A stretch of 64,000 nt of DNA from Bacteroidota bacterium (GTDB lineage Bacteria > Bacteroidota > Bacteroidia > Chitinophagales > Chitinophagaceae), in NCBI GenBank assembly GCA_037144255.1, contig JBAWXE010000001.1:24866-88865 (forward strand). Reading direction: 5' to 3'. The notes beneath the pieces were generated by a model. It worked only from the letters and a program-made list of their open reading frames with translations, made no database searches and was not told where the DNA came from. The position numbers were made by a program, and so were the translations under genes. Below, piece by piece: positions 4,898-47,495 of the stretch; within the stretch, counting starts at the first letter, position 1, and every line of letters begins with the position of its first letter.

Positions 4898-5022
4898 GGT
4901 CATGCACAGGAAGAGTTTATGATCTATTTATAGCTAATTCCTTGCTCATCTCCTCCCATTTTCATACCTTTGTAGGGTACAAAGTTCGCATCTTTTTTCT
5001 TCTTATGCGTTCTTTTTCAGGT

Positions 5023-5115
5023 CGGTAATTATTCGGTAAAGGATCGGTAATAAACCGGAAACCAATCGGTAATTTTCGGTAAATGATCAGTAAATTTTCC
5101 GATAGAAACCGGTAA
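5023..5115. repeat. Phased direct-repeat array: 9 CGGTAA-type boxes at 10-12 bp spacing
   Basis: Box starts at 5023, 5034, 5045, 5056 (CGGAAA), 5067, 5077, 5088 (CAGTAA), 5100 (CGATAG) and 5110. Near base-for-base homologue at 45664..45744. Confidence 0.85.
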
Positions 5116-5152
5116 TATTTTAGCCGCATCCACAACAAATCTCCGATTATCT

Positions 5153-5606
5153 AATGTTACAATGTAACCCAAATGTAACTTTTGAAATCACACAACTGAT
5201 TGATTATCAACTATATAAACTACACCTGTAACCAAAAAAATTTTCCAAGTGAATGTAACATTTCAATTTATTTATATGCATATTTTTGAGCAAAAACCAT
5301 CCCTAAGGGATTGCATATTTATAGGAAAATTAAAAAGCAACTTCATCCGTTGCGGATGGTATCGCATATTCAAAAAACAAATGTTACATTGAAAAGCAAA
5401 TGTAACATTTGTAATCTCACAACTAATTGATTATCAAACACTCAAACTTCCCACTTACCATAAAAAATTTTCCAAGAGAATGTAACTTTTGATTGTATTT
5501 ACGTACACCATTCACAACAACCCTATCCCGAAAGGATTACATATTTATAGAAAAGTAGAAAAATATCTCCACCCGATGCCGTAGGTATCGCATATCAAAT
5601 TCCACA
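5153..5606 (+). repeat. Tandem duplication (period ~227 bp) of a non-coding unit: ~100 bp TGTAAC/TTGATTATCAA module plus a hairpin-bearing spacer
   Basis: Landmarks recur at +226/227 bp. TTGATTATCAA at 5200 and 5427. GAATGTAAC box at 5251 and 5478. CATATTTATAG at 5314 and 5540. Hairpins at 5299..5311 and 5525..5537. No ORF of 60 aa or more. Confidence 0.8.
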
Positions 5607-5653
5607 CATTCACCACATTGACGCATTACACACATTGTCACATTGCTCACATT
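5605..5653 (+). repeat. Short tandem repeat, 6 x CACATT(G)nn with 8-9 bp period
   Basis: CACATT (once CGCATT) starts at 5605, 5614, 5622, 5631, 5639 and 5648. Ends 33 bp before the Nif3 ATG. Confidence 0.75.
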
Positions 5654-5685: not shown

Positions 5686-6786
5686 ATGTTAGTAAAAGAT
5701 ATCATTCAGGCCATAGAGCAGTTCGCACCCTCCACCTATCAGGAAAGCTATGACAACTCAGGTCTCCAGGTCGGCGATACCCATGCCACAGTTACAGGTA
5801 TACTCCTCAGTCTGGATATTACAGAAGCTATAGTAGATGAGGCTATAGAGCGTCGTTGTAATATGATAGTGTCCCATCACCCACTATTATTCTCCGGACT
5901 CAAACGCATTTCGGGCAACAACTATATAGAACGTATTGTACATAAGGCCATTAAGCACGATATCCATTTATATTCAGTCCATACCAATCTGGATAATGTA
6001 CGCGCTGGTGTCAATGCAGCTTTTGCAGCCCGCCTCGGCTTGCAGAATACCCGCATACTAGCCCCCATGCAGGGCACCTTACGCAAATTATATACATATG
6101 CCCCTGTAGATGTGGCAGAAAAGATCCGACAGGCACTTTTTGCCGCCGGTGCAGGTAATATAGGTGAGTATACAGAATGTAGTTTCAGCTCCGAGGGCGA
6201 CAGTACTTTCAAACCCAGCCTACATGCCAATCCTTTTATTGGTCAGGCTGGTGGCCCTACCGAAAATATTCGCGAGGTAAAGATCGAGGTCATCGTTCCA
6301 CTTCATAATGAAAGAGCAGTACTTAAAGCCCTGTTCGATACTCACCCATATGAGGAGGTTGCCTACGAAATGGTACAACTCCTCAATGAGAACCAAGATC
6401 TAGGTGCAGGTATGATAGGTAACTTACCACAGGCTTTAGATGAAACTGCTTTCCTTTACTTCCTGAAACAACAAATGAAACTTTCTTACATTCGTCATGC
6501 CCCACTATTGGGTCGTCAAATAAAAAAAGTAGCTATTTGTGGGGGCTCCGGTAGTTTCTTACTCAAAGATGCCATGAGGGCAGGTGCTGATATCTTCATA
6601 ACAGGAGATTTTAAATATCATCAATTTTTCGATGCCGATGGGCGTATTGTCATTGCCGATATTGGCCATTACGAGAGCGAGCAATTCACCGTAGAATTAT
6701 TGGCAACGATACTTAACGAAAAATTCCCTAATTTTGCCATTCTTTTATCAATATTATCAACGAATCCTGTAAATTATTTTTGCTGA
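5686..6786 (+). CDS. Nif3-like dinuclear metal centre protein (YbgI/GTP cyclohydrolase 1 type 2 family)
   Basis: 366 aa. N-terminal YDNSGLQVGD and SHHPLLF motifs, central PII-like insert, C-terminal GHYESE motif. Confidence 0.85.
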   Translation: MLVKDIIQAIEQFAPSTYQESYDNSGLQVGDTHATVTGILLSLDITEAIVDEAIERRCNMIVSHHPLLFSGLKRISGNNYIERIVHKAIKHDIHLYSVHTNLDNVRAGVNAAFAARLGLQNTRILAPMQGTLRKLYTYAPVDVAEKIRQALFAAGAGNIGEYTECSFSSEGDSTFKPSLHANPFIGQAGGPTENIREVKIEVIVPLHNERAVLKALFDTHPYEEVAYEMVQLLNENQDLGAGMIGNLPQALDETAFLYFLKQQMKLSYIRHAPLLGRQIKKVAICGGSGSFLLKDAMRAGADIFITGDFKYHQFFDADGRIVIADIGHYESEQFTVELLATILNEKFPNFAILLSILSTNPVNYFC

Positions 6787-45510: not shown

Positions 45511-45663
45511 AATATCAGAGTCGATGAATATTTTCACCAAAGATATACTGCCGATGCTACACATTATTTCCTTTGGAAAAGCCGACCTTTTTTCGTACTT
45601 TTACCATGCCTGCAAGACGTATTTTTTTCCTTTCATACGTCCTTTATATTGCAAAAATATCAT

Positions 45664-45744
45664 CGGTAATTATTCGGTAACGATCGGTAATAAATCGGAA
45701 ATCCATCGGTAATTTTCGGTAATCAGTCGGTAAAGATTCAGTAA
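45664..45744. repeat. Second phased CGGTAA array (8 boxes, 10-11 bp spacing)
   Basis: Box starts at 45664, 45675, 45685, 45696 (CGGAAA), 45707, 45717, 45728 and 45739 (CAGTAA). Collinear with 5023..5115. Confidence 0.85.
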
Positions 45745-45781
45745 CTATTTTAGCTATACCCACAACACATTGTCGATTACC

Positions 45782-45895
45782 AAATGTTACACTGTAACCC
45801 AAATGTAACCTTTGAATTCTCACAACTCACTGATTATCAACCACTCAAACTTCTCGCTAACCATAAAAAAGTTTTTAAGAGAATGTAACCTTACG
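45782..45895 (+). repeat. Third copy of the TGTAAC/TGATTATCAA module
   Basis: AAATGTTACACTGTAACCCAAATGTAACCTTTGAATTCTCACAACTCACTGATTATCAAC...GAATGTAACC aligns with 5153..5265. Confidence 0.8.
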
Positions 45896-45925: not shown

Positions 45926-46516
45926 ATGAACATACTCAATATGAATACCATGTCTTTAATTAAAAATAGATCCTGCTTATTTATTATTTGTATTTGTTTC
46001 CTTTCTATTAACTCACTTGCACAGGATAAACAGAAAGTTTTTCAAATGCACGATAATGAATTTATTGAAGCGCGTTTGGGTAAAGTTTTTCCTGTAAATG
46101 AAATTCTTACATCAATCACTGGAGAATTAATTGATCTGAAAAACCTCCACGAACCTTTAATTGTTTTCTTAGGTTTTTGGGGTTGTCATCCTTGTGAATT
46201 TGAATTGCCCATATTAGCCAAAGTATCTAAGATGGGAAAATATAAAAACTATCATTTTGTATATATAACTAAGGACAGGCTTAACAACTTCGAAAAAGAA
46301 TTATCCTCAATGCATTTAGATAGCTTAGGGAATATTAAAGTTGTTTGTGGCCAAGATACAATGATACATAAACGTAAATTGGATAACGGTTACCCTACAA
46401 TGTATTTTATTAATTCAGATTATACAGTTTCACATATAGAAACAGGTGGTAATACTAAGGGTGAAGAAACAGTAGTACTAGAACCTTGGAGTAAAGAATT
46501 GGATAAATTGAAATGA
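45926..46516 (+). CDS. Secreted thioredoxin-like (TlpA/redoxin family) protein
   Basis: WGCHPC CxxC motif. Signal peptide MSLIKNRSCLFIICICFLSINSLAQ. Candidate ATGs at 45926, 45941 and 45950. The track start at 45812 lies inside the repeat module. Confidence 0.7.
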   Translation: MNILNMNTMSLIKNRSCLFIICICFLSINSLAQDKQKVFQMHDNEFIEARLGKVFPVNEILTSITGELIDLKNLHEPLIVFLGFWGCHPCEFELPILAKVSKMGKYKNYHFVYITKDRLNNFEKELSSMHLDSLGNIKVVCGQDTMIHKRKLDNGYPTMYFINSDYTVSHIETGGNTKGEETVVLEPWSKELDKLK

Positions 46517-46530
46517 TTTCAAATACCCCA

Positions 46531-46636
46531 TGTAACCCAAATGTAACTTTTGAATCCACACAACTCATTGATTATCAACTATTCAACTTCCCCTGTAACC
46601 TTAAAAAATTCTCTCAGAATGTAACTTTTGAATTTC
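46531..46636 (+). repeat. Fourth copy of the TGTAAC/TTGATTATCAA module
   Basis: TGTAACCCAAATGTAACTTTTGAATCCACACAACTCATTGATTATCAAC...GAATGTAACTTTTGAA begins 15 bp after the redoxin stop. Confidence 0.8.
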
Positions 46637-46727: not shown

Positions 46728-47495
46728 ATGCATCGCATCTCTCTCATATTCATAGCTTTTATATTAATATTTGCCACACCATTGTCATCATTTGCCTGGG
46801 GCAAAAAAGGCCATAATCTCGTGGCCGATGTAGCTGCCCGTTATATGGATGATGCTACCCGCAAAAAAGTACAACATTATCTGGGTTCCACCACTTTCGA
46901 CGAGGCCAGTACTTGGATGGACGAGATGCGCTCCGACCATAGTTACGATTACATGAAACCATGGCATTATGTAGATTTCCCTAAAGGGAAATTATATAAT
47001 GCCAATACTGAGGAAAATCTGGTGAATGAACTGAACAAGGTGATTGGCGAACTGAATAATAAGAGCAAACTCTCTGATGAACAGATAAAAACGGACATAC
47101 TCATACTTTTCCATCTCGTAGGCGATCTGCATCAACCTTTACATGTAGGTTATGCTGATGATAAAGGCGGTAATGCGATCAAACTTACTTTTATCGACAA
47201 AGCAGATAATCTGCATTGGGTTTGGGACAATGGTATCATAGAAAATAAAAAGGTTATTCTTTCAGATGTAGTTAGGGAGGAGGCAAATTATACCCCTGCA
47301 CAACTGGAACAGCTCAAAAAGATCAATATCGAGAATTGGGTAAATGCTGAACGTCCTTTATTGACCGCAGTATACGATTTCAACAATAATACCATCGATC
47401 AGGCTTACGTAGATCGCAATATTAAGACAGTAGAAACACAATTATTTATAGCCGGTATCAGACTGGCAGCCATTCTGGAGCAAGCATTCAAATAG
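46728..47495 (+). CDS. S1/P1-family secreted nuclease
   Basis: 255 aa. The mature N-terminus WGKKGH and the HLVGDLHQPLH and NLHWVWD motifs are typical zinc ligands of S1/P1 nucleases. Confidence 0.85.
   Translation: MHRISLIFIAFILIFATPLSSFAWGKKGHNLVADVAARYMDDATRKKVQHYLGSTTFDEASTWMDEMRSDHSYDYMKPWHYVDFPKGKLYNANTEENLVNELNKVIGELNNKSKLSDEQIKTDILILFHLVGDLHQPLHVGYADDKGGNAIKLTFIDKADNLHWVWDNGIIENKKVILSDVVREEANYTPAQLEQLKKINIENWVNAERPLLTAVYDFNNNTIDQAYVDRNIKTVETQLFIAGIRLAAILEQAFK

What the first reader, a model, noticed from the sequence alone, without database searches (positions are those of the whole stretch)
5153..5606. Tandemly duplicated ~227 bp non-coding unit built from a ~100 bp module seen four times in the window
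One ~100 bp module recurs at 5153..5265, 5380..5494, 45782..45895 and 46531..46636. Its layout is GTTACA-N12-TGTAAC, then CACAACT, then the perfect palindrome TTGATTATCAA, then CTGTAACC-A-rich, then GAATGTAACnTTT. All four copies have the same orientation and sit upstream of + strand genes (Nif3-like, redoxin, S1/P1 nuclease). At the first locus, module plus spacer is duplicated head to tail with landmark offsets of 226-227 bp, and there is no ORF. Each spacer keeps a small hairpin (ATCCC-TAA-GGGAT at 5299..5311 and ATCC-CGAAA-GGAT at 5525..5537) and GCATAT boxes. The first spacer also has CATCCG-TTG-CGGATG at 5344..5358. Module 1 is followed by a good -7 box (TATTTTTG, 5281..5288). Unit 1 could therefore drive a small RNA covering the hairpins. 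The modules could also be a shared operator/promoter cassette defining a regulon, or a MITE-like element.
Basis: partly seen in the sequence, partly recalled or inferred. Interest (0 to 1): 0.62.

Follow-up and report, generated by a model that had tools for sequence, protein, structure and literature searches.

The report
Repeat-built promoter cassette module, Chitinophagaceae
The duplicated 227-bp stretch is two copies of a roughly 100-bp non-coding DNA module that occurs about 59 times in this lake bacterium, always as one ordered part of a repeat-built cassette that begins with a textbook promoter and sits between unrelated genes; the family looks undescribed and its function is unproven.

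Summary

M is not a four-copy curiosity. nhmmer finds 59 copies in this 3.0-Mb Chitinophagaceae MAG. M is one block of a strictly polar mosaic:
- P, a conserved canonical Bacteroidota promoter (TTTG-N21-TAtcTTTG), 40 copies
- a hairpin stuffer or B unit
- I, an array of CGGTAA repeats phased at 11 bp, 33 arrays
- M, then a hairpin unit (A, B or C), then M again
- H, CACATT repeats, followed by a gene

None of 47 multi-module loci mixes strands. I precedes M in 24 of 24 loci, and P comes first in 39 of 40.

M has no RNA consensus fold, no terminal inverted repeats and no neighbouring integrase. Genes downstream are unrelated (rpsL, groES, aspS, gcvT, NIF3, S1/P1 nuclease). About a third of cassettes face the 3' end of a convergent gene.

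The window's spacers are C units, which are REP-like hairpins. One of the five copies, together with an inverted 18-nt hairpin, flanks the genome's only IS200-like Y1 gene.

Two other genera have P and the palindrome TTGATWATCAA combined with different short repeats.

Best reading: M is a DNA-level protein-binding module of a portable promoter-leader cassette. The sRNA, MITE and regulon readings are not supported.

The parts
4941..4972 (+). Degenerate P module (promoter) of locus 1: CTTG, 20 nt, then TACCTTTG (-7 box at 4965-4972). CTCCTCCCATTTTCATACCTTTG is homologous to the P consensus CTACCYCCATTTCGTATCTTTG.
   Evidence: Read against the 40-copy P family. It falls below the nhmmer threshold, so the assignment is by eye.
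5017..5115 (+). I module: array of (T)CGGTAA repeats phased at 11 bp.
   Evidence: (D3). There are 33 such arrays in the genome, and the spacing is 11 bp in 130 of 175 steps.
5131..5151 (+). Core-like motif CACAAC-N8-GATTATC between I and M1.
   Evidence: Read and compared with the core CACAAC-N3-TTGATTATCAA.
5154..5266 (+). M1: module copy 1. Layout: ATGTTACA, TGTAAC-N5-TGTAAC, CACAAC, TTGATTATCAA, TGTAACC plus an A-tract, AATGTAAC.
   Evidence: C1:30028-30128 = window 5163-5263, E = 9e-19.
5297..5373 (+). C1: C-type REP-like hairpin unit. It holds ATCCC-TAA-GGGAT, GCATATTTATAG, CATCCG-TTG-CGGATG and GTATCGCATAT.
   Evidence: There are five full copies in the genome, and one abuts the Y1 transposase gene.
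5380..5494 (+). M2: module copy 2. Its 5' end forms a 14-8-14 inverted repeat at 5377-5412.
5523..5599 (+). C2: second C-type hairpin unit. It holds ATCC-CGAAA-GGAT, ACATATTTATAG, CGATGCC-GTA-GGTATCG and GCATAT.
5605..5653 (+). H module: six CACATT/CGCATT repeats at 8-9 bp spacing, ending 33 bp before the NIF3-like ATG (5686).
   Evidence: 10 such arrays in the genome. Pfam DUF34_NIF3 for 5686-6786.
45572..45603 (+). Degenerate P module of locus 2: TTTG, 20 nt, then TACTTTTA.
   Evidence: One search compared. Assigned by eye.
45651..45781 (+). I module of locus 2 (CGGTAA array plus the core-like CACAACACATTGTCGATTACCAA).
   Evidence: E = 7e-37.
45783..45895 (+). M3: module copy 3. It ends about 30 bp before the CxxC ORF at 45926-46516.
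   Evidence: E = 5e-22.
46531..46636 (+). M4: solo module copy 4. It starts 15 bp after the stop of the CxxC ORF and ends about 90 bp before the S1/P1 nuclease gene (46728-47495).

Best explanation
The 227-bp tandem unit is two consecutive [M + C] pairs. They lie inside a roughly 750-bp intergenic region made entirely of repeat modules, in front of the NIF3-like gene: P' - hairpin - I - M - C - M - C - H.

**Shown**
- M is a strictly oriented, intergenic module of about 100 bp with no RNA structure. There are about 59 copies in this 3.0-Mb genome.
- M is always co-oriented with the CGGTAA arrays and with the P promoter module where these occur in its locus, and it always lies downstream of them.
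- The family is lineage-specific and sits in front of unrelated genes.

**Inferred**
- M works as DNA. It would be a protein-binding platform made of phased TGTAAC direct repeats (TGTAAC-N5-TGTAAC, an 11-bp register), the palindrome TTGATWATCAA, an A-tract and a second TGTAAC pair.
- Transcription that starts at P would run through this platform, so an unknown binder could modulate read-through into whatever lies downstream.

**Spacers.** The C spacers between the M copies are a separate component. They are REP-like hairpins of the kind that flank the genome's single IS200-like Y1 (HUH) gene.

**Spread (inferred).** The cassettes spread and reshuffle as modules. Likely routes are recombination between modules, segmental duplication with paralogous genes, and possibly single-strand events catalysed by the Y1 enzyme. 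TIR-type transposition is not involved.
For: **Copy number and placement**
- There are 59 nhmmer hits, and all are intergenic by crude ORF calls apart from one flagged overlap.
- All modules together cover 0.75% of the genome.

**Grammar**
- 0 of 47 multi-module loci mix strands, and I precedes M in 24 of 24.
- P is the first module in 39 of 40 P-bearing loci.
- P matches the Bacteroidota sigma-A consensus: -33 TTTG, 21 nt, -7 TAnnTTTG. The consensus itself is from established knowledge.
- Both window loci keep a P-like box.

**DNA rather than RNA**
- RNAalifold predicts 0 pairs on either strand, and the mean MFE z-score is +0.24.
- Rfam has no hit.
- Conservation is patterned: TGTAAC, CAA, ATCAA and AATGTAAC are nearly invariant while the rest varies.
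- TGTAAC occurs 167 times on the element strand against 13 GTTACA.

**Lineage-specific addition**
- M is absent from 40 relatives and from 300 family genomes, apart from weak hits.
- The intergenic region upstream of gcvT is 538 bp here, against mostly under 250 bp in 23 relatives, which carry almost no TGTAAC there.

**Architecture kept across genera**
- P, TTGATWATCAA and arrays of other short repeats recur in genera g83 and g132.
- The same genome also has ATGCAM and AGCACA arrays phased at 11 bp downstream of P. A shuffled control gives 0 arrays.

**C unit and the Y1 gene**
- The genome has a single Y1_Tnp gene (96 bits).
- It is flanked by a perfect 18-nt inverted hairpin repeat, and the 3' copy lies inside a full C unit.
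- There are only 5 C units in the genome, and the other four are embedded next to M.
- One C copy shows a compensatory change in the hairpin stem.

**Arrays change**
- One assembly holds a 264-bp M-containing unit, between 84-bp identical repeats, that two other assemblies lack.

**Other**
- Ten paralogous T9SS cargo genes have their start facing a cassette.
Against: - There is no transcript data of any kind. The only run found is the source DNA metagenome.
- No binding protein has been identified, and no small DNA-binding gene recurs next to cassettes.
- 11 of 31 P-bearing cassettes, and 13 of 40 M loci, point at the 3' end of a convergent gene, where a gene promoter makes no sense.
- In tandem gene pairs the element is co-directional in 10 and anti-directional in 9.
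- About 20 of 59 M copies have the first TGTAAC pair split by the 54-nt INS insert. That is hard to square with an essential dimer site.
- Mobility is inferred, not shown. No empty site could be found because synteny with the nearest genera is broken.
- Copies are old, with a mean core identity of about 59% including flanks.
- The link between Y1 and M itself is adjacency only. Roughly 3-4% of genes neighbour a cassette by chance.
- Two P assignments in the window are by eye.
Confidence: 0.5

Rival explanations
1. The family is purely selfish or neutral mosaic repeat DNA, like REP/BIME or BOX elements. M would be a linker module that hitch-hikes with REP-like hairpins (A, B, C, INS), amplified by the Y1 HUH enzyme or by recombination. 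It would have no role in regulating neighbouring genes, and the promoter-like P would be incidental or would serve the element.
For: - Orientation relative to genes is close to random in tandem gene pairs (10 against 9), and six loci lie between convergent genes.
- Neighbouring genes are unrelated.
- Many copies sit at contig ends and break the assembly.
- Insertions are nested: INS lies inside M and inside A.
- The Y1 gene is flanked by the C hairpin.
- A and B carry CGTC 5' of the palindrome, as in the CGTC-tagged REPs reported in Bacteroidetes (PMC3733652).
- The element strand is the C-rich strand in 29 of 41 loci (p = 0.012). The replication component of the skew is negative in 21 of 31 loci (Wilcoxon p = 0.027). 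This is the bias expected for single-strand transposition.
Against: - M is not palindromic, and the modules never alternate in orientation as REPs do in BIMEs.
- The motif-specific conservation inside M, and the retention of P plus the palindrome across genera with different iterons, argue for selection on function.
- Copy numbers of the hairpin units are low (5-32).
- Subclass 1.2 Y1 proteins are not known to have REPs (PMC6006769).
Confidence: 0.22
2. The cassettes are independent non-coding RNA genes. P would drive a long RNA whose repeated hexamers (CGGUAA, UGUAAC, AUGCAC and others) titrate RNA-binding proteins in the manner of CsrB. M would be part of that RNA.
For: - P always lies upstream and points into the arrays.
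- A third of cassettes have no gene to serve.
- In the window locus there is almost nothing terminator-like on the + strand, while four such sites lie on the - strand.
- The 454-nt unit folds better than shuffles, z = -3.2, because of the hairpins at 5299-5311, 5344-5358, 5377-5412 and 5565-5581.
Against: - The exact 11-nt period matches the DNA helical repeat and has no obvious meaning in RNA.
- At least five different hexamers would need as many binders.
- M has no structure or covariation.
- There is no RNA evidence and no Rfam family.
Confidence: 0.12
3. M1 would supply a -33 element and TATTTTTG (5281-5288) a -7 box, producing a small RNA that covers the spacer hairpins.
For: - TATTTTTG fits TAnnTTTG.
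- The spacer hairpins are conserved between the two units and in three further loci.
Against: - The -7 box is present only after M1. Unit 2 and the other C-type loci (C43, C150, C22) lack it.
- M1 has TTTC, not TTTG, at the -33 position.
- The hairpin-plus-T-run geometry is on the minus strand.
- Rfam gives nothing at a significant E-value.
Confidence: 0.03
4. The modules are site-specific recombination sites that bracket mobile gene cassettes, either integron- or attC-like or lox/FRT-like through the 14-8-14 repeat in M2.
For: - The CxxC ORF at 45926-46516 is exactly bracketed by M3 and M4.
- M2 has a perfect 14-8-14 inverted repeat.
Against: - None of the five tyrosine recombinase genes is adjacent to any M or I locus.
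- The ORF-between-modules layout is essentially unique. Other tandem M copies are 190-310 bp apart with no ORF between them.
- The 14-8-14 repeat is specific to M2, and only 7-10 of 59 copies keep any GTTACA arm.
Confidence: 0.04
5. M is a classical MITE, a non-autonomous DDE transposon remnant.
For: It is short, non-coding, intergenic, multi-copy and breaks the assembly.
Against: - There are no terminal inverted repeats. Both ends of M are direct TGTAAC motifs.
- No consistent target-site duplication appears at solo copies.
- Order and polarity among modules are strict.
Confidence: 0.02

Closest known systems
Putative mobile promoters (PMPs; Matus-Garcia, Nijveen & van Passel 2012; PMC3575422)
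   Same: Homologous non-coding upstream sequence is reused in front of non-homologous genes within one genome. For example, M3 is 89% identical over 108 nt to a copy on contig C104. The way these sequences spread is unknown.
   Different: PMPs are mostly pairs with about 92% identity. Here there is a 40-60-member, multi-module family with fixed order, phased iteron arrays and REP-like hairpins. A third of the copies serve no gene.
Enterobacterial BIMEs / REP-RAYT systems (Nunvar 2010, PMC2817692; Bertels & Rainey 2011, PMC3116915)
   Same: Both are intergenic mosaics of short hairpin units plus non-palindromic linker motifs. A single-copy Y1 HUH gene is flanked by its own hairpin in inverted orientation. 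The linker could bind a host protein, as the RIP/RIB IHF site does: 26 of 59 M copies match WATCAANNNNTTR.
   Different: - All modules are co-oriented here. REPs alternate in BIMEs.
- M is not a palindrome.
- Hairpin copy numbers are 5-32, not hundreds.
- The Y1 protein belongs to subclass 1.2 (DHIH / WQ / YIKNQKEHH), for which no REPs are described (Table 1).
- E. coli RAYT (4ER8) is not among the PDB sequence hits.
CGTC-tagged palindromic repeats (Di Nocera et al. 2013, PMC3733652)
   Same: The A and B units carry CGTC just 5' of the palindrome (…CCGTCATTGCGGCCCCCGAGCCGCAAT; …GGCCGTCATTTC…). This class was reported in Bacteroidetes and has no dedicated transposase.
   Different: This concerns only the spacer units, not M. 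The window's own C units lack the tag.
Pneumococcal BOX elements (boxA-boxB(n)-boxC)
   Same: Both are modular, polar, non-coding intergenic repeats with a variable number of internal modules. This comparison rests on my own knowledge.
   Different: BOX elements fold into stable RNA structures and carry no promoter module or phased hexamer arrays.
R1 parC / omega-type iteron operators, and Pho-box-type direct repeats of OmpR-family regulators
   Same: Short direct repeats in an 11-bp register lie next to a promoter. This is the geometry used by ribbon-helix-helix or winged-helix proteins that bind one face of the DNA. This comparison rests on my own knowledge.
   Different: Those are single loci with a known partner gene nearby. 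Here there are dozens of chromosomal loci, at least five hexamer types and no partner gene.

Membership tests
REP / BIME (RAYT-associated) | Repeat unit is a 20-40 nt imperfect palindrome | tested here: not met
   M has no palindromic fold. The feature is met only by the spacer units A, B, C and INS.
REP / BIME (RAYT-associated) | REPs alternate in orientation within a BIME | tested here: not met
   0 of 47 multi-module loci mix strands.
REP / BIME (RAYT-associated) | A single-copy Y1 transposase gene is flanked by the cognate repeat in inverted orientation | tested here: met
   This holds for the C unit only. There is one Y1_Tnp gene, flanked by the 18-nt inverted repeat ACGATGCCGAAGGTATCG, and the 3' copy lies inside a C unit.
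REP / BIME (RAYT-associated) | GTAG or CGTC tetranucleotide tag at one end of the palindrome | tested here: inconclusive
   CGTC precedes the hairpin in A units and in most B units. It is absent from C and INS. It was not counted systematically.
IS200/IS605 insertion sequence (for the Y1 gene) | Several identical copies, each with subterminal hairpins on one strand | tested here: not met
   The gene is single-copy, and its flanking hairpins are inverted. The motifs DHIH / WQ / YIKNQKEHH place it in subclass 1.2 (PMC6006769, Table 1).
MITE | Terminal inverted repeats and a target-site duplication | tested here: not met
   Both M ends are direct TGTAAC motifs, and the flanks of solo copies share no consistent duplication.
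Known RNA family (Rfam 15) | Match at or above the gathering score | tested here: not met
   There were 0 hits in the whole window. The best sub-threshold hit is GP20-a at 20 bits against a threshold of 47, E = 0.88.
Integron attC / tyrosine-recombinase core site | An adjacent integrase, and repeated gene cassettes bracketed by the sites | tested here: not met
   None of the five PF00589 genes is next to an M or I locus. Only one ORF is bracketed by modules.
Putative mobile promoter (PMP) | At least 80% identity over at least 50 nt upstream of non-paralogous genes in one genome | tested here: met
   M3 matches the C104, C1:30243, C79, C13 and C43 copies at 81-89% over 106-113 nt. Their downstream genes are unrelated. 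The PMP window of -150 to -50 from the start codon was not enforced.
Bacteroidota sigma-A promoter (for module P) | -33 TTTG and -7 TAnnTTTG about 19-21 nt apart | tested here: met
   The consensus TTTG-TTACCCCCTACCYCCATTTCG-TATCTTTG occurs in 40 copies. Activity cannot be tested with these tools.
OmpR/PhoB-type direct-repeat box (for TGTAAC-N5-TGTAAC) | Two direct hexamer or heptamer repeats in an 11-bp register, bound by a winged-helix dimer | tested here: inconclusive
   The geometry is present in 23 of 59 copies exactly and 29 of 59 with one mismatch. INS splits it in about 20 copies. No regulator has been identified.

The most novel reading that the evidence does not exclude
A clade of Chitinophagaceae may have an undescribed, modular cis-acting system. 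It would consist of a constant strong promoter (P), a constant palindrome (TTGATWATCAA) and interchangeable arrays of hexamers phased at 11 bp. The hexamers seen so far are CGGTAA, TGTAAC, ATGCAM and AGCACA in this genome, and GGAAAT, TGTCCG and AAAGTCAA in other genera. Each array type would be read by its own factor, either on DNA as a phased nucleoprotein filament downstream of the start site, or on the transcript as a protein sponge. The units would be copied around the chromosome, in part by a subclass 1.2 Y1 HUH enzyme whose function is so far unknown.
Probability: 0.15. Interest if true: 0.8.

Novelty: new variant of a known kind. Interest (0 to 1): 0.55.

Why it matters
**What it would add, if the reading holds**
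- About 0.75% of a streamlined 3-Mb genome consists of ordered, promoter-bearing repeat cassettes. They stand in front of core genes such as rpsL, groES, aspS and gcvT.
- That would be a clear example of promoter propagation. It could explain how a lineage rewires expression without transposons of the usual kind.

**Open questions it makes testable**
- Subclass 1.2 Y1 (IS200-like) proteins of Bacteroidota and Cyanobacteria have no known substrate. This locus links one of them to a repeated hairpin unit, which can be tested.
- Similar phased arrays keep turning up in uncultured phyla. This locus offers a defined set of phased DNA arrays with which to look for their binding proteins.

**Limits**
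- All the evidence is computational.
- It comes from one draft MAG.

Tried and rejected
**Searches that gave nothing**
- Rfam, by E-value on the locus and by gathering score on the whole window, returned nothing usable.
- An exact-pattern scan of 185k species genomes with the M 5' motif gave 0 hits.
- The CGGTAA x3 pattern gave mostly chance hits, and none of them carried M.
- The metagenome scan hit only Ga0194037, which is the MAG's own source at 100% identity. It therefore provides no independent relatives.
- The run search found one DNA run and no RNA.
- Laying contigs on the locus showed no variants or joints.

**Ideas tested and dropped**
- Empty-site test: the pckA-gcvT adjacency that holds an I-M block here is not kept in any of 24 relatives. 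Only the length of the intergenic region could be compared.
- Regulon idea: rejected after Pfam annotation of the downstream genes.
- Recent tandem duplication as the general origin of M-M arrays: rejected. Neighbouring copies are no more alike than random pairs (0.593 against 0.588). The window's own pair (77%) may still be an old local duplication, because both units share the rare C spacer.
- IHF-site reading of the core: weakened. The TTR part of WATCAANNNNTTR is not kept in genus g132.
- ECF-type promoter (TGTAAC-N16-CGTC): it fits only M-B junctions, not the window's copies.
The only recurrent neighbours are NHL/T9SS paralogues.
Full report
**1. Observation**

The sequence is as described.
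- The repeat finder returns the four + strand copies (D2) and the head-to-tail unit with 227-bp (D1) and 226-bp (D4) offsets.
- A profile of the four copies scores them at E = 1e-27 to 3e-32.
- The hairpins, the GCATAT boxes and TATTTTTG (5281-5288) are all present. The only ORF in the unit is a 47-codon GTG frame.
- Two things were missed. At both loci the homology continues about 130 bp upstream as a block of (T)CGGTAA repeats (D3). The family is also far larger than four copies.

**2. Genome-wide picture**

The window is C1:24866-88865 of a 3.0-Mb, 205-contig MAG. It comes from a lake-water metagenome.

Iterated nhmmer finds 59 M copies. Many are in pairs or triples 190-310 bp apart, and many lie at contig ends. 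Profiles for the sequences around them define further modules:

| Module | What it is | Copies |
|---|---|---|
| P | Promoter-like module | 40 |
| I | CGGTAA arrays | 33 arrays, 208 repeats; spacing 11 bp in 130 of 175 steps |
| A | Hairpin unit | 17 |
| B | Hairpin unit | 32 |
| C | Hairpin unit | 5 full copies |
| INS | 54-nt mini-element | 25, about 20 of them nested inside M between TG and TAAC |
| H | CACATT repeats at 8-9 bp | 10 arrays |

Two more 11-bp-phased arrays also occur: ATGCAM (8 arrays) and AGCACA (6 arrays). A shuffled genome gives no such arrays.

The grammar is strict.
- None of 47 multi-module loci mixes strands, and I precedes the first M in 24 of 24.
- P is the first module in 39 of 40 P-bearing loci.
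- All modules together cover 0.75% of the genome.

**3. Module P**

The P consensus is (tatcgaaac)AAATATTTGTTACCCCCTACCYCCATTTCGTATCTTTG. It contains the Bacteroidota sigma-A elements: -33 TTTG, 21 nt, then -7 TAnnTTTG. The consensus itself is established knowledge.

Both window loci keep a degenerate P upstream of the I array, assigned by eye:
- 4941-4972, with TACCTTTG
- 45572-45603, with TACTTTTA

The full layout of locus 1 is therefore P' - hairpin - I (5017-5115) - M1 - C1 - M2 - C2 - H (5605-5653) - 33 nt - ATG of a NIF3-family gene (Pfam 281 bits). The whole 790-bp intergenic region is built from repeats.

**4. What M is not**

- **Not a structured RNA.** RNAalifold finds no pairs on either strand, and the mean MFE z-score is +0.24. 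Rfam is empty.
- **Not a MITE.** Both ends are direct TGTAAC motifs, and there is no consistent target duplication.
- **Not an integron-like site.** None of the five tyrosine recombinase genes is adjacent. The ORF bracketed by M3 and M4 is a one-off.
- **Not a regulon marker.** Downstream genes are GroES, RpsL, AspRS, GcvT, an ABC ATPase, DinB, GNAT, NIF3 and two S1/P1 nucleases.
- **The TATTTTTG box does not recur.** The other C-type loci lack the box that follows M1.

**5. What M looks like**

Conservation is patterned.
- TGTAACC, AAATGTAAC, CAA, (TTG)AT.ATCAA, TGTAACC plus an A-tract, and AATGTAAC are nearly invariant. The stretches between them vary.
- TGTAAC occurs 167 times on the element strand against 13 GTTACA.
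- The first two TGTAAC motifs are 11 bp apart in 23-29 copies.
- The palindrome TTGATNATCAA is present with two or fewer mismatches in 52 of 59 copies.

This is the signature of protein-binding DNA. No partner is known, so the step from pattern to binding is inference.

**6. Orientation and neighbours**

Codon scoring confirmed that the convergent ORF calls are real genes.
- The gene downstream of an M locus is co-directional in 27 cases and convergent in 13.
- For P-bearing loci the counts are 20 and 11.
- Among loci with both flanks known, 11 are divergent, 6 convergent, 10 tandem co-directional and 9 tandem anti-directional.

The cassette cannot simply be "the promoter of the next gene". 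It behaves like a self-contained unit dropped into intergenic DNA, with a mild bias.

Ten paralogous NHL/T9SS genes have their start facing a cassette. Some of the spread is therefore segmental duplication.

**7. The spacers and the Y1 gene**

- The genome has one Y1_Tnp gene (C22, 153 aa).
- Its motifs DHIH, WQ and YIKNQKEHH match subclass 1.2 of Quentin et al. 2018. That subclass is low-copy, found in Bacteroidetes and Cyanobacteria, and has no REPs or IS ends described (PMC6006769, Table 1).
- The gene is flanked by a perfect 18-nt inverted hairpin repeat. The 3' copy is part of a complete C unit.
- Only five C units exist. Two are the window's spacers, and those in C43 and C150 also sit between M copies.
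- One copy keeps the second hairpin through changes on both sides of a pair.
- Homologues of the Y1 gene occur at 1-3 copies in 19 of 41 relatives, several of them flanked by inverted repeats.

The tie between Y1 and M itself is adjacency only.

A and B carry CGTC 5' of the palindrome, like the CGTC-tagged REPs reported in Bacteroidetes (PMC3733652).

The element strand is the locally C-rich strand in 29 of 41 loci (p = 0.012). After the coding-strand effect is removed, the skew is negative in 21 of 31 (Wilcoxon p = 0.027). This suggests a replication-linked orientation bias but does not establish it.

**8. Dynamics**

- Tandem neighbours are no more alike than random pairs, so arrays are generally not recent local duplications.
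- At C18 the JGI contig holds M-spacer-M(INS). The MAG and a Logan contig hold a single M there. The difference is a 264-bp unit between 84-bp identical repeats.
- This could be unequal recombination or assembly collapse. Contig-level data cannot tell them apart.

**9. Distribution**

- M is absent by BLAST from 40 relatives. A sequence model gives only weak hits in 300 family genomes.
- One of those genomes, G082 (genus g83), has several M-like elements. They have ATGTAAC/ATGTAAG or AAAGTCAA repeats, then CACAA-N-TTGATWATCAA-YACTTA.
- The P pattern occurs 34 times here and 0-2 times in most family genomes. It occurs 7 and 4 times in two genomes of genus g132 and 4 times in a second g83 genome.
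- In those genomes P is again followed by a leader hairpin, by arrays of other short repeats and by AATTGATAATCAAT.
- The constant parts (P and the palindrome) and the variable parts (the iterons) are thus older than this genus. The expansion is specific to this genome.
- Upstream of gcvT the intergenic region is 538 bp here, against mostly under 250 bp in 23 relatives (two reach 400-500 bp). Those relatives carry almost no TGTAAC there.

**10. Verdict**

M is one module of a lineage-specific, polar, promoter-bearing mosaic repeat. The nearest described concepts are putative mobile promoters (PMC3575422) and BIME/REP-RAYT systems.

I consider it most likely (0.5) that M acts as DNA, as a binding platform inside a transcribed leader. 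The rivals are:
- inert selfish repeat, 0.22
- ncRNA or sponge gene, 0.12

Function and mobility remain inferred.

Noticed in passing
genome contig C22:10428-10925 (locus L153 1129-1626, minus strand): This is the genome's only Y1_Tnp (IS200-like, subclass 1.2) gene. It is flanked by a perfect 18-nt inverted hairpin repeat and a C-type unit. The subclass has no described substrate.
   Followed up: partly
about 20 M copies genome-wide, e.g. C17:4145-4202 and C54:9814-9872; also inside an A unit at C16:6894-6944: A 54-nt mini-element (INS) with three arms that can form two alternative hairpins (TTCGGG / CCCGAA / TTCGGG). It is nested between TG and TAAC of M and also occurs solo, with 25 copies in all.
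   Followed up: partly
L128 4081-4444 versus genome contig C18:13120-13310: The JGI metagenome contig has two tandem M copies, the second carrying INS. The MAG and a Logan contig have one. The difference is a 264-bp unit between 84-bp identical repeats, which may be a population variant or an assembly collapse.
   Followed up: partly
genome contigs C2, C3, C8, C15, C26, C44, C49, C101 (ATGCAM) and C5, C17, C19, C24, C90, C108 (AGCACA): Two more families of hexamer arrays phased at 11 bp, with 5-10 repeats each. Several were checked and lie downstream of P and the TTGATTATCAA core.
   Followed up: partly
window 5605-5653 and nine other loci: CACATT/CGCATT repeats at alternating 8- and 9-bp spacing (module H). 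They usually form the last module before a start codon.
   Followed up: no
window 45926-46516: The ORF called a redoxin has a WGCHPC (CxxC) motif but no Pfam match at E <= 1e-3.
   Followed up: no
window 5299-5412, minus strand: Four of the five terminator-like sites (hairpin plus T-run) in the locus are on the minus strand, against 0.5 sites expected by chance. The cassette could therefore stop antisense or convergent transcription.
   Followed up: no
ten cassette loci (C7, C9, C15, C21, C25, C43, C45, C54, C120, C169): Paralogous NHL-repeat / T9SS cargo genes have their start facing a cassette. Four lie downstream of it and six are divergent from P.
   Followed up: no
L213-L221 (genomes G245, G131, G307) and L145, L196-L202 (G082): Other Chitinophagaceae genera carry P-like promoters followed by arrays of different short repeats (GGAAAT, CGGAAAA, GGATAAAAA, TGTCCG, AAAGTCAA) and the same palindrome.
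   Followed up: partly
C5:23570-23658, C18, C110, C120, L128 4230-4260: A further recurring sub-module, GTAAACCTATTTCAGGACGAGGCA, lies between cassette modules.
   Followed up: no
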